A DNA stretch of 8,852 nt from a virus (taxonomy: Duplodnaviria > Heunggongvirae > Uroviricota > Caudoviricetes): the IMG/VR virus record IMGVR_UViG_2778261136_000008, positions 1 to 8,852 of that record; one strand, given 5' to 3'. A program made the position numbers. Below, piece after piece: positions 3,001-6,000 of the stretch (within the stretch, counting starts at the first letter, position 1; the number at the start of each line of letters is the position of its first letter).

Positions 3001-6000
3001 TTGCGCATTGATGCCGAGATACGCTTCCAGTCTTCGCGGTCGTTGTCGATAACTTCATTTTTTGCCCAGCGATGGATGCTGCCGTCAATGTTTCCGGCAT
3101 CCACATCACCAGGCCAGAGAGCGTAGGCCAGTTCGTCATCCAGTGTTTTCCATGTCTGCTTGTATTCGCGATGAATGGCAGCAATGACCGGGCTGATTTT
3201 TCCTGTTGAATTTTCAGTGTGTTGTTGATTGGTTCTGGCGCGGGCGAGATCAACAACAGACGTGTATTTTCCGGTTTCCTTGCGTTCACCTTCGCGACGT
3301 TTTTTCCAGATGCGCATCTCTGCCTGAATTTCGGGCCATTTGGCACCAGGCTTACATTTATGCTTAACCCACCCGATGGCATGCAGCTTAAGTTCCGGAT
3401 ACATGGCGTTAACTTCTGGCATTTTCATCAACGCTTCAACGATATGTCCGTCGAATGTTGCCATGTCTTCCTGCAACAATTCCTGTGCGCTAATAACCAT
3501 ATCAACGGTGATGTTTTCACATGTGTCGAACTTAACCATGACAGCGTTCTGTACTTCAGGGGCCAGCTTGTCAAAAGTGACGTTCATCGGATCTGATTCA
3601 GTCTCAACCGGGACAAAGGAAGCAGACTCCTCATCCCAGCGGTTTTCCTGCATATATTCAGCATCCCAGGAATCGAGGGCAGGGCGGGGTATGCCGGGTT
3701 TATCCTCACAGACAATAAATTTATAAGCGCAGTCCTGAGCTGCAGGGAATTGCTCCAGAAATTGCCAATGAAATTTTGCGCGTGCGCGACGCTCATCACC
3801 GGCTTCAATGGCAGTGGCCACCGCAACAGCGCTATCTTCTTTTATGGCCTGTTCATCAGGAATAGCAGCGCAAATAAAGACCTTACTCATTTTGTTTTAA
3901 CCTCATTACAGATTTCAGGGTGAACGAATCCCTGCCATTGCTGGCATTTTTAATCCGTTGGTATGGTGTTAATATGGCTGGCTGGTTATCCAGCCGGTAT
4001 TTCGTTATTCAGGTTCAGCGATACTTTTTTTAACGGGAGGCATTCACCGGGGATTTTTTGTTCGTCCCTTACCTGAATGCAGGATGACTTACTGTCATAA
4101 ATTCCGGTAATCACATTTTGTGGCTCACCCGTTATAAGAAAAACGGTCATCACCAGTGCAAATGCTGAAGTCACTGCTGTTCTCCGATAATACCAAGTTC
4201 AAGAAGGGCAATTCTGGAAAGTATGGAATTATCATTGAGAAGATAAGGTTCATATTTTCTCATCTTAATGGCATCTTCCGTAAACTCCCGGTTACTGAGC
4301 AGAACGCCAATATCAAAACAACCTTCAGACGTATTAACGTTTGGTAATAACGTTTCCATTATCGCGTCCTCAACAATGAATTTTGTGATGCGGTGCCTGG
4401 TGCCTCCAGGTGACGTTAACCAGTTAACAATTAACGCCGGAATACAGAAGGATGCCCGTTACGCCCCGTAAAAGACCACTTTACGGTTTTAACTGTTCCG
4501 CGTGCGCATAGCCGCATTCACCGCATCACAAAATTCACTTTAAAAAGGGTGGCAGAGCAGTCACGGAGTAGAACTGATGCCACCAAATACTACACATGGG
4601 TATTGTGGCGGGGCTGTCACTTAAGCGTATGGTCAACCTGACGACCCGGTGCATTTTCTGGAGCAATGGAGGAAGCCCCAGCCATACTTACCGCCGCGCC
4701 ATTTCGCGGATTGCCACAACCGGAAGCGCATGATCGAATTACATTTAACGACGACCTGTACAGAGAGACTAACTTCGCCGTGCGCTTTCGTGTTATGCCC
4801 TGACTTTTCAGGGAAATATCCTTTCAGCAAACTGTCAGTGCCGGATTCTTATCCGTGTCCGGCGCACGACCACACGTGACAGCGTGTTGGTCTCCATCAT
4901 TAACCCGGAACCTCTATGGAGGATAATATGCAAGTTGATATTATTAGCCCTGTAATGATCCATATGCTTGCGCACATCAGGCTCTTCTGGCACTAATCAA
5001 CGCCGGAAAAATTGAAAATTCCGCGATGTGCTTTGAAGAGTTGAAACAACTTGTGCGCTTGTATGAATATATTAAAAAACAATCACAAGATACGGCGTAA
5101 TATTTAAAATACTTTCTGTTATATGGGGCTGCTATAATGCTGGCCCATATTTCTAACCCCTCTATAAGAAAAACATATTATTATGGCAATTTCTTCGGTA
5201 GCTCTTCAGAAAGCTGAGTTGTTTTAATTATGGTTTTTAAATAATCATCGCTTTCACATTTGAGTGATTCTATGGCAATCCAGATGTGGGCTTCGGTGCC
5301 TGCATTTGGTTCCAGTTGCTGTAGACGTTTTGCATCTTCCAGTAGTAAGGCGATAACGTGTTTCAGCTTCTCATCATTCGCTTGATTCTTGTTTTCAGGC
5401 GAATTTTGTCCGCCGAATGGCCACTTTTCTTCGTACAGCCCGATAAAGGTTCGACGCACGTTACCGGATATATTGTCGATGGTTTCTTTTTCTACGGTAC
5501 TCAGGTCAAGAGTCGCCAGTTGAGAACGAACTATATTCGCTGCCATTTCCTGGAATGGTACTGGTAAATCTTTAAATTCCATCGTCAACCTCATCAGTCA
5601 GTGTTTCTGGCTAACCAGCGACGCGCGCCAGCTTCAGTTTTAAACGTTTTGCTTCTGGTATACGTCATCGCGGTAAACGTGCCGTCCAGGTTGGAGAATA
5701 CTCCGCATACCAGAGATTCGTTGTTGCCAAGATTGAGCGTATCCATGTTGACCTCATTTACCCTTAACGCCGGGTCGCGGAACTAAAAACCTGCTGCGCT
5801 GTTATACAAAGTGTTCCCGCCGTCATGTTCATACGCCTCGGGCTGGCTACTTAACCCCTGACCACTGCCGGGTAACTCGAAGTATTGCCCTGCGTTCTGT
5901 TGAATGGGGTGGGTTGGTGAAACAAGGATGCACTTTTAAAGTTATTATGTCAACACTTATAAAGTTAGGTTGTGGGCAACAAAAACCGCCTCGAGATGAG

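What the first reader, a model, noticed from the sequence alone, without database searches (positions are those of the whole stretch)
4542..4599. DicF homolog with conserved 3' body, compensatory terminal-stem substitutions, and a diverged 5' region
Relative to the E. coli K-12 DicF sequence as I remember it, the 3' ~41 nt are nearly identical. The two changes in the terminal stem are compensatory (GGCGG/CCGCC to GGTGG/CCACC), which argues for a functional structured RNA rather than a decaying remnant. The 5' ~12 nt appear different. In E. coli the two ends of DicF are reported to pair with different mRNAs (ftsZ and metabolic targets such as xylR and pykA); which end pairs with which I recall only loosely. 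A changed 5' end could therefore retarget part of the regulon while preserving the other part.
Basis: partly seen in the sequence, partly recalled or inferred. Interest (0 to 1): 0.5.

Follow-up and report, generated by a model that had tools for sequence, protein, structure and literature searches.

The report
DicF small RNA with swapped 5' end
This is a genuine copy of the prophage-encoded cell-division-inhibiting small RNA DicF, in a minority version (about 4% of complete E. coli genomes) that keeps the hairpin and the part that pairs with ftsZ but has a different 5' tail that can no longer pair with the known 5'-end target xylR.

Summary
Rfam's DicF model hits window 4598..4547 on the minus strand at 62 bits (threshold 48; K-12 DicF scores 76.7). 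The element sits where DicF should, upstream of dicB in a Qin/Rac-like prophage early operon.

Against K-12:
- Nt 13-53 are 37/41 identical. The differences are C18U/G50A (compensatory), U21C (G·U to G-C) and U29C in the loop.
- Nt 1-12 are 2/12 identical, next to a 14-nt indel that removes K-12's RNase E-site hairpin.
- Hairpin stability is unchanged (-15.8 vs -15.9 kcal/mol).

This "class II" allele recurs. It is in 208 of 5426 complete E. coli genomes and 36 IMG/VR contigs, but in no deposited phage genome. It can share a genome with the canonical allele.

Published work assigns ftsZ, pykA and manX to the 3' part of DicF and only xylR to the 5' end.

My pairing model predicts:
- xylR pairing lost (-13.3 to -4.5 kcal/mol)
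- pykA kept
- ftsZ roughly kept
- manX weakened

No new target for the new tail was found, and its true 5' end is unknown. Verdict: a real DicF family member and a distinct seed variant. Retargeting is plausible but unproven.

The parts
4542..4599 (-). DicF small RNA, class II allele. K-12 nt 1 corresponds to window 4599. The Rfam match covers 4598..4547 and the U-run covers 4546..4542.
   Evidence: Rfam RF00039 at 62 bits against a gathering score of 48. Aligned to K-12 dicF.
4585..4599 (-). Single-stranded 5' tail, CCAUGUGUAGUAUUU (nt 1-15), the variable seed region. Nt 1-12 are 2/12 identical to K-12. The UUU at nt 13-15 is invariant across the 19 class I and class II alleles aligned. The real 5' end of the mature RNA is unknown.
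   Evidence: Alignments A1 and A2. Predicted unpaired. Predicted xylR pairing lost.
4548..4584 (-). Terminator and Hfq-module hairpin (nt 16-52): a 7-bp outer stem, a bulge and a 4-bp inner stem. Carries C18U (4582) with G50A (4550), and U21C (4579).
   Evidence: Fold energy -15.8 vs -15.9 kcal/mol for K-12. Pair counts.
4562..4572 (-). Hairpin loop UCUACUCCGUG (nt 28-38). It carries the anti-Shine-Dalgarno CUCC that pairs with the ftsZ and pykA ribosome-binding regions. 10/11 identical to K-12 (U29C at 4571).
   Evidence: 3'-region pairing is described in PMC5069750.
4603..4611 (-). Upstream strand (CCGCCACAA) of a predicted outer stem that encloses DicF. Probably the RNase III substrate.
   Evidence: Precursor fold. 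All variant combinations seen remain pairable. The link to RNase III is inferred from the published 72-nt isoform (PMC5069750).
4521..4531 (-). Downstream strand (UUGUGAUGCGG) of the same outer stem. The 3' end of K-12's 72-nt isoform would fall inside it.
   Evidence: inference.
4171..4359 (-). dicB, the cell-division inhibitor protein (62 aa), immediately downstream of dicF.
   Evidence: Pfam PF05358 DicB, 1-62/62, E = 3.7e-38. RefSeq annotation of near-identical loci.
3986..4174 (-). ydfD-like DUF1482 gene, downstream of dicB.
   Evidence: Pfam PF07358.
5594..5746 (-). ydfA-like DUF1391 gene, the first small gene of the dicBF-type operon.
   Evidence: Pfam PF07151. Annotation of H91.
6527..6934 (-). 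DicA-like HTH repressor (135 aa). It is divergent from a YdaS/Cro-like gene at 7006-7320 (+) and presumably controls the operon.
   Evidence: Pfam HTH_3. Synteny with K-12 dicA/dicC. Its control of the operon is inferred.

Best explanation
Window 4599..4542 (minus strand) encodes a functional allele of DicF, the Hfq-dependent prophage small RNA.

Inferred mechanism, by homology with K-12:
- The RNA is cut out of the early-left (dicBF-type) operon transcript of a Qin/Rac-like lambdoid prophage.
- Its 3' end comes from its own intrinsic terminator hairpin, or from RNase III cleavage in an outer stem.
- Its hairpin loop and 3' arm pair with the ribosome-binding regions of ftsZ and pykA. This blocks translation and stops cell division when the prophage operon is derepressed.

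This copy belongs to a distinct, recurrent allele class ('class II').
- The hairpin is preserved through a compensatory C18U/G50A pair plus U21C.
- The anti-ftsZ loop is preserved except for U29C.
- The 5' single-stranded tail is replaced: CCAUGUGUAGUAUUU instead of UUUCUGGUGACGUUU.

The predicted consequence is loss of the xylR interaction, which in K-12 needs the 5' tail, while the division-blocking arm is kept. Whether the new tail has targets of its own is open.
For: Shown by tools:
- Rfam DicF hit at 62 bits (GA 48), full length; K-12 scores 76.7.
- Canonical synteny: DUF1391/ydfA-like ... dicF - dicB - DUF1482/ydfD-like - exonuclease - xis - int, with a DicA-like repressor upstream.
- Same predicted hairpin and energy as K-12.
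- Pair 18-50 shows CG, UA and a UG intermediate.
- The loop is 10/11 identical. By contrast, DicF-like elements at the same position in other prophages have entirely different loops. This argues that the loop sequence, not just a terminator, is under constraint.
- Accessibility-aware duplex model, K-12 vs window in kcal/mol: xylR -13.3 (tail nt 4-15) vs -4.5; pykA -12.5 vs -11.5; ftsZ -7.9 vs -5.6 (hybridisation -22.7 vs -21.0); manX 3' site -11.8 vs -5.8.
- The ftsZ and xylR target sites are at least 99% identical to K-12 in about 99% of 5.4k genomes.
- The allele recurs: 208/5426 complete E. coli genomes, 4/120 and 36 in total among IMG/VR contigs.

From the literature: 3'-end vs 5'-end target assignment, and the RNase E, RNase III and terminator biogenesis route (PMC5069750, PMC5861419, PMC9438474).
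Against: - There is no expression, processing or Hfq-binding evidence for this allele.
- K-12's RNase E site lies in the loop of a small hairpin (GUUAUCA-AUUUUC-UGGUGAC). The 14-nt indel destroys that hairpin here, so the mature 5' end, and therefore the existence of a tail, is not established.
- In the window's sub-allele, GU|AUUU just before the hairpin fits the RN|WUU RNase E motif (from my own knowledge). Cleavage there would leave almost no tail.
- The energy model is home-made, not IntaRNA or CopraRNA. The predicted ftsZ differences are small.
- The compensatory pair is effectively one event.
Confidence: 0.8

Rival explanations
1. Retargeting. The new 5' tail is a working seed that recruits new mRNA targets, so class II DicF has a partly different regulon and is not merely a reduced one.
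For: - The tail is predicted fully unpaired, with an opening energy near 0.
- The U-rich stretch before the hairpin (nt 13-15) is invariant across the 19 class I and class II alleles aligned.
- The core AUGUGUAGU is kept across 36 IMG/VR contigs with only 2 polymorphic sites.
- The UGUGUAG motif recurs in the tail of a more divergent DicF-like element (L232/L235).
- Class I and class II copies sit together in the same genome, as expected for diverged sibling sRNAs.
Against: - No target was identified. There is no complement of at least 10 nt in the window or in 1.4 Mb of related prophage DNA, apart from dicF's own antisense strand.
- The one hit among the known targets is a 7-8 bp match to manX +21..+31. 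That is within chance by my estimate (P about 0.3).
- A genome-wide search could not be run.
- The 5' end is unknown.
Confidence: 0.3
2. Terminator or processing element only. The hairpin is kept because it is the internal intrinsic terminator and RNase III/E processing site that sets dicB expression, and this allele has no trans-acting role.
For: - The hairpin plus U-run is a canonical intrinsic terminator.
- Other prophages carry, at the same position and with the same downstream flank, hairpins with unrelated loops that lack the anti-ftsZ sequence (L232, L233, L235, L252, and a second copy in L212). So the position-specific conserved function could simply be termination.
- A compensatory stem change would be expected under this reading too.
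Against: - Terminator loops are free to vary, yet this one keeps 10 of 11 loop nt, including CUCC, and all of the 3' arm except the compensated G50A.
- Predicted pykA and ftsZ pairing is retained.
- The Rfam score is far above threshold.
Confidence: 0.1
3. Recombinant mosaic without adaptive meaning. Class II arose by recombination between a canonical DicF and a DicF-like element of another prophage lineage. The tail difference is a neutral by-product of prophage mosaicism.
For: - The window is itself a mosaic: 99.3% identical to RM10466 only over 1375-5593, with a different integrase and immunity region.
- The junction CGCCACAA..CCAUGU and the 5' stem half GG[C/U]GGCAUCAG resemble the second DicF-like element of L212.
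- Identical DicB proteins are linked to both allele classes.
- Mixed alleles exist: a class I tail with A50, a class II tail with G50, and class I with C29.
Against: This explains origin, not function. It is compatible with the best explanation and with retargeting. A frequency of about 4% of genomes across unrelated strain backgrounds shows the allele is not rapidly purged.
Confidence: 0.4

Closest known systems
DicF of E. coli K-12 cryptic prophage Qin (Rfam RF00039)
   Same: - Same position in the same operon, upstream of dicB.
- Same hairpin architecture and stability.
- The same loop and 3' arm that pair with ftsZ and pykA.
- Same U-rich stretch and poly-U.
- Same conserved flanks, including the outer stem around the 72-nt isoform's 3' end.
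   Different: - The 5' tail nt 1-12 are replaced (2/12 identical).
- A 14-nt indel removes K-12's RNase E-site hairpin.
- C18U/G50A, U21C and U29C.
- Rfam score 62 vs 76.7 bits.
- Predicted loss of xylR pairing and weaker manX pairing.
Multi-copy DicF of EHEC O157:H7 (Melson & Kendall 2019; Murashko & Lin-Chao 2017). I know these only through reviews, PMC7873438 and PMC9438474, because the primary papers are not held.
   Same: Prophage-borne DicF copies present several per genome in pathogenic E. coli. The class II allele is also found in STEC genomes alongside other copies.
   Different: The text I could read treats the EHEC copies as DicF in general. No paper I could search describes an allele with this tail. 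A literal sequence search of the paper library found nothing. I did not determine which allele classes O157:H7 carries.
DicF-like hairpins at the dicB-upstream position in other prophages (L232/L235, L233, L252, second copy in L212). These are possibly the inactive 'dicF-like' sequences of Faubladier & Bouché 1994, which I recall from memory and could not read.
   Same: Same locus, same downstream flank, a GGCGG/CCGCC terminator stem and a U-run. The L232/L235 tail shares UGUGUAG with the window's tail.
   Different: They lack the UACUCCGUG loop and score only 29-39 bits, below the Rfam threshold. The window keeps that loop.
Sibling sRNAs with shared scaffolds and diverged pairing regions, such as OmrA/OmrB (general knowledge; PMC13473878 appeared but I saw only its abstract)
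   Same: Paralogous sRNAs in one genome that share a terminator and Hfq module but differ in a pairing segment, giving overlapping but non-identical regulons.
   Different: Here the paralogues lie on different mobile prophages rather than in tandem in the core genome. The differing regulon is only predicted.

Membership tests
DicF (Rfam RF00039) | Covariance-model score at or above the family gathering score of 48 bits | tested here: met
   62.0 bits, full model 1-52, E = 4.7e-12. K-12 reference scores 76.7 bits.
DicF (Rfam RF00039) | 3' stem-loop (7 bp, bulge, 4 bp) followed by a U-run, acting as an intrinsic terminator | tested here: met
   The MFE structure is essentially the Rfam consensus, at -15.8 kcal/mol against -15.9 for K-12. 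99% of cells are paired across 19 alleles.
DicF (Rfam RF00039) | Location in the dicBF-type prophage operon, between the ydfA-like genes and dicB | tested here: met
   dicB (PF05358) lies 187 nt downstream, followed by DUF1482. DUF1391 and a DicA-like HTH lie upstream. Same order as K-12.
DicF (Rfam RF00039) | Complementarity of the loop and 3' arm to the ftsZ ribosome-binding region | tested here: met
   CUCCG:CGGAG plus flanking pairs are retained. Hybridisation energy -21.0 vs -22.7 kcal/mol, total -5.6 vs -7.9. The ftsZ leader is at least 99% identical to K-12 in 5389 of the 5425 matching genomes. This is a prediction only.
DicF (Rfam RF00039) | 5' tail that pairs with xylR codons 3-7 (K-12 nt 4-15) | tested here: not met
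   -13.3 kcal/mol with 11 consecutive bp for K-12, against -4.5 for the window. The xylR site is conserved in 5377 of the 5409 matching genomes. This feature belongs to the K-12 allele rather than to the Rfam family, whose 5' columns are weakly conserved.
DicF (Rfam RF00039) | 5' end generated by RNase E processing of the operon transcript | tested here: inconclusive
   K-12's cleavage-site context, an AU-rich loop of a small hairpin, is deleted here. Whether cleavage happens cannot be tested with these tools.
DicF (Rfam RF00039) | Hfq dependence and in vivo inhibition of cell division | not testable with these tools
   Only the sequence hallmarks are present: U-rich nt 13-15, the hairpin and the 3' poly-U.

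The most novel reading that the evidence does not exclude
The dicF locus is a modular, seed-swapping sRNA cassette. A conserved scaffold (flanking RNase III stem, U-rich stretch, terminator hairpin) carries interchangeable 5' tails and loops that recombine among lambdoid prophages. One E. coli genome can then hold several DicF siblings with different regulons. In this reading the class II tail is an active seed with its own, still unknown, host or phage targets, while the ftsZ-blocking arm is kept.
Probability: 0.25. Interest if true: 0.6.

Novelty: new variant of a known kind. Interest (0 to 1): 0.4.

Why it matters
DicF is a textbook prophage sRNA, and its two ends are known to act on different targets. 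A natural, widespread allele that keeps the division-blocking arm but replaces the 5' seed is a ready-made separation-of-function variant.

It predicts that about 4% of E. coli strains, including STEC and clinical isolates, carry a DicF that stops division without shutting down xylose use. It also predicts that strains holding both alleles have two DicF siblings with different regulons.

If the new tail has its own targets, the allele would be a clear case of regulon evolution by seed replacement on a mobile element. If it has none, it is simply allelic variation within a well-known family.

Tried and rejected
- **Whole-length RNA.duplexfold of DicF against targets.** It gave unrealistically long duplexes with large loops. 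I replaced it with window-limited duplexes plus opening energies. IntaRNA, RNAup and CopraRNA are not installed.
- **Target for the new tail inside the window and in 1.4 Mb of related prophage DNA.** Only dicF's own antisense strand came up, and the number of distinct contexts was similar to that of shuffled tails. The phage-encoded-target idea therefore has no support. A genome-wide host search was not feasible because no whole genome is accessible.
- **Literal sequence search of the paper library for the class II tail and stem.** Nothing was found.
- **Primary papers not held.** Melson & Kendall 2019, Murashko & Lin-Chao 2017 and Faubladier & Bouché 1994 could not be read. I therefore could not check which alleles the four EHEC copies represent.
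- **Simple terminator scan.** It did not flag the DicF hairpin because its loop limit is 8 nt. This is not evidence against termination. No minus-strand promoter-like site was found between 4600 and 5200, so there is no sign of a private dicF promoter.
- **A split cI-like gene at 6018-6560.** I considered this and rejected it. The two ORFs are a ParE/RelE toxin and a PaaA2/RelB antitoxin.
- **Species-wide scan.** DicF was found only in Escherichia and Shigella records and in four MAG contigs filed under other taxa (Veillonella, Collinsella, 'Proteobacteria'), which are probably contamination. The other hits were chance matches without the stem.
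Full report
**1. What is there**

The window's only Rfam hit above threshold is DicF (RF00039). It lies at 4598..4547 on the minus strand, scores 62.0 bits against a gathering score of 48 (E = 4.7e-12), and covers the whole model (repeated). A run of five U extends the element to 4542.

I fetched the true K-12 gene (NC_000913.3 1649382-1649434, annotated 'small regulatory RNA DicF') and aligned it. 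In K-12 numbering, nt 1 corresponds to window 4599.
- Nt 13-53 differ at four positions: C18U (4582), U21C (4579), U29C (4571) and G50A (4550).
- Positions 18 and 50 are partners in the consensus structure, so C-G becomes U-A.
- Position 21 pairs with G47, so U·G becomes C-G.
- U29C lies in the loop.
- Nt 1-12 (UUUCUGGUGACG vs CCAUGUGUAGUA) are 2/12 identical.
- Just upstream, K-12 has 14 extra nucleotides. Further upstream and downstream the two loci align well.

Both RNAs fold into the same hairpin with the same energy, -15.8 vs -15.9 kcal/mol.

**2. Context**

Gene order on the minus strand is as follows (compare K-12):
- DicA-like HTH repressor (6934-6527)
- a PaaA2/RelB-ParE/RelE toxin-antitoxin pair (6560-6018)
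- a DUF1391/ydfA-like gene (5746-5594)
- a 137-aa ORF with no family match
- about 580 nt without a recognisable gene
- dicF
- dicB (4359-4171; Pfam DicB 1-62/62)
- a DUF1482/ydfD-like gene
- an 823-aa exonuclease
- excisionase
- integrase

A YdaS/Cro-like gene, ydaT and a replication gene run the other way from 7006.

This is the dicBF-type early operon of a Qin/Rac-like lambdoid prophage. Its integrase, excisionase and exonuclease reading frames are open, unlike K-12 Qin, where ydfE and intQ are pseudogenes.

The window is a mosaic. It is 99.3% identical to E. coli RM10466 only over 1375-5593. The best whole-window hit in 5426 complete genomes covers 78% at 95.7% identity.

**3. How common the allele is**

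- A 101-nt query spanning the tail and hairpin finds at least 80% coverage in 208 of 5426 complete E. coli genomes, 175 of them at 99% identity or better.
- A class-neutral core pattern retrieved 120 IMG/VR contigs. Of these, 115 carry the K-12-type tail ('class I') and 4 carry the window type ('class II').
- An exact class II hairpin pattern finds 36 IMG/VR contigs in all.
- Class II tails come in a few sub-alleles: AUGUGUAGUC (commonest), AUGUGUAGUA (the window's) and AUGCGUAGUC.
- No deposited phage genome carries class II. Twenty-one carry the canonical hairpin.
- Across one genome per species, DicF appears only in Escherichia and Shigella records and in four MAG contigs filed under other taxa, probably contamination.
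- At least two sequenced isolates carry class I and class II on different prophage contigs.

**4. Structure evidence**

Across 19 distinct alleles, 99% of stem cells are paired.
- Pair 18-50 is CG:13, UA:4, UG:1 and CA:1.
- Pair 21-47 is UG:13 and CG:6.

A U·G intermediate (class II tail with G50) and a C·A mismatch allele (class I with A50) both exist in nature. This is a textbook compensatory path, but it amounts to a single event. It shows selection for the hairpin.

The hairpin is also the operon's internal terminator, so this alone does not prove sRNA function. The stronger argument is the loop. Other prophages carry hairpins with unrelated loops at the same position and with the same downstream flank (L232/L235, L233, L252, and a second copy in L212; 29-39 bits, below threshold). 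Class II keeps 10 of 11 loop nucleotides, including the anti-Shine-Dalgarno CUCC.

**5. What the changes should do**

Published work places ftsZ and pykA pairing in the 3' part of DicF and xylR pairing in the 5' end (PMC5069750). manX also uses the 3' end (PMC5861419).

I scored window-limited duplexes plus opening energies. The method is home-made but applied identically to both alleles.

| Target | K-12 (kcal/mol) | Window (kcal/mol) | Reading |
|---|---|---|---|
| xylR | -13.3 (11 consecutive bp, tail nt 4-15 with xylR +8..+20, as published) | -4.5 | lost |
| pykA | -12.5 | -11.5 | kept |
| ftsZ | -7.9 (hybridisation -22.7) | -5.6 (hybridisation -21.0) | roughly kept |
| manX 3' site | -11.8 | -5.8 | weakened |

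For ftsZ, G50A weakens the distal GGCG contact, while U29C adds a C-G pair next to the RBS contact.

The ftsZ and xylR sites are at least 99% identical to K-12 in about 99% of genomes, so K-12 targets are fair proxies.

**6. What remains open**

The 5' end of K-12 DicF is made by RNase E (PMC5069750, PMC9438474). In the K-12 precursor the cleavage region is the loop of a small hairpin, GUUAUCA-AUUUUC-UGGUGAC. The 14-nt indel removes half of it in class II, so the mature 5' end here is unknown.

A predicted outer stem encloses DicF in the window (CCGCCACAA at 4611-4603 with UUGUGAUGCGG at 4531-4521). All natural variant combinations of it stay pairable. By my count, the 3' end of K-12's 72-nt isoform falls inside this stem, which would fit RNase III cleavage. 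If RNase III defines the 5' side too, the class II tail would be about 18-20 nt. If RNase E cuts at GU|AUUU, there would be almost no tail.

I found no target for the new tail in the window or in 1.4 Mb of related prophage DNA. A genome-wide host search was not possible.

**7. Origin**

Three observations suggest that class II arose by recombination between DicF lineages:
- The class II junction (CGCCACAA..CCAUGU) and 5' stem half (GGUGGCAUCAG) resemble the second, sub-threshold DicF-like element of L212.
- The L232/L235 tail shares UGUGUAG with the window's tail.
- Identical DicB proteins are linked to both classes.

The locus looks modular.

**8. Verdict**

The element is a bona fide DicF and is not decaying. 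It is a distinct, recurrent seed variant whose clearest predicted consequence is loss of xylR control with the division-blocking arm retained.

'Retargeting' to new mRNAs is plausible but unsupported by any identified target. The family is well known, and Rfam recognises this copy. The allele class itself is not described in any text I could search and is not annotated in the RefSeq records listed in the searches.

Interest is moderate.

Noticed in passing
window 4549..4327 (minus strand): The dicF-dicB spacer and the first codons of dicB give a sub-threshold match to Rfam STnc100 (RF02076), at 36.8 bits against a gathering score of 47, E = 4.7e-06. The same weak match follows DicF in K-12 and in several other loci (27-39 bits). 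The Salmonella sRNA family STnc100 may therefore be homologous to this prophage spacer.
   Followed up: partly
window 4611-4603 and 4531-4521 (minus strand): A predicted outer stem (CCGCCACAA with UUGUGAUGCGG) encloses DicF. K-12 has U·G, G·U and G·U where the window has C-G, A-U and G-C, and every natural combination I saw stays pairable. By my count the 3' end of K-12's 72-nt isoform falls inside this stem, so it is probably the RNase III substrate.
   Followed up: partly
L232:18-67, L235:1275-1324, L233:394-442, L252 (same position), L212:3063-3111: DicF-like hairpins sit upstream of dicB with the same downstream flank, but their loops lack the anti-ftsZ sequence (Rfam DicF 29-39 bits, below threshold). 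L252 combines a K-12-type tail with a short unrelated hairpin, and L232/L235 share UGUGUAG with the window's tail. The locus looks like a set of interchangeable tail and hairpin modules.
   Followed up: partly
L148 and L008 (IMG taxon 2563366825); L149 and L073 (IMG taxon 2703718818): The same sequenced isolate carries a class II DicF on one prophage contig and a canonical class I DicF on another. Taxon 2617271340 has two class II copies (L152, L172).
   Followed up: yes
window 6018-6560 (minus strand): A ParE/RelE-family toxin (95 aa) and a PaaA2/RelB-type antitoxin (83 aa) are inserted between the DicA-like repressor and the ydfA-like gene, inside the early-left operon. K-12 Qin instead has relBE on the other side of dicC.
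   Followed up: partly
window 1-1374 and 5917-8852, compared with L001: The window is a mosaic. It is 99.3% identical to E. coli RM10466 over 1375-5593 only, with a different integrase and a different immunity/replication region. RM10466's prophage sits next to rspB, the Qin site. The best whole-window relative (strain P15-385) sits next to potC.
   Followed up: partly
L233:686-874 and L242:145-333: Some dicB-bearing IMG/VR contigs carry isrK (63.6-67.7 bits) and C4 antisense RNA (79.3-81.9 bits), both above threshold, upstream of dicB. This P1/P7-type immunity RNA module lies close to the DicF-like element.
   Followed up: no
L133 (MAG filed as Veillonella parvula), L135 (MAG filed as Collinsella sp.), L134 (MAG filed as 'Proteobacteria bacterium'): Canonical E. 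coli-type dicF with its flanks appears in MAG contigs assigned to unrelated taxa. This is most likely binning contamination by Escherichia prophage DNA.
   Followed up: no
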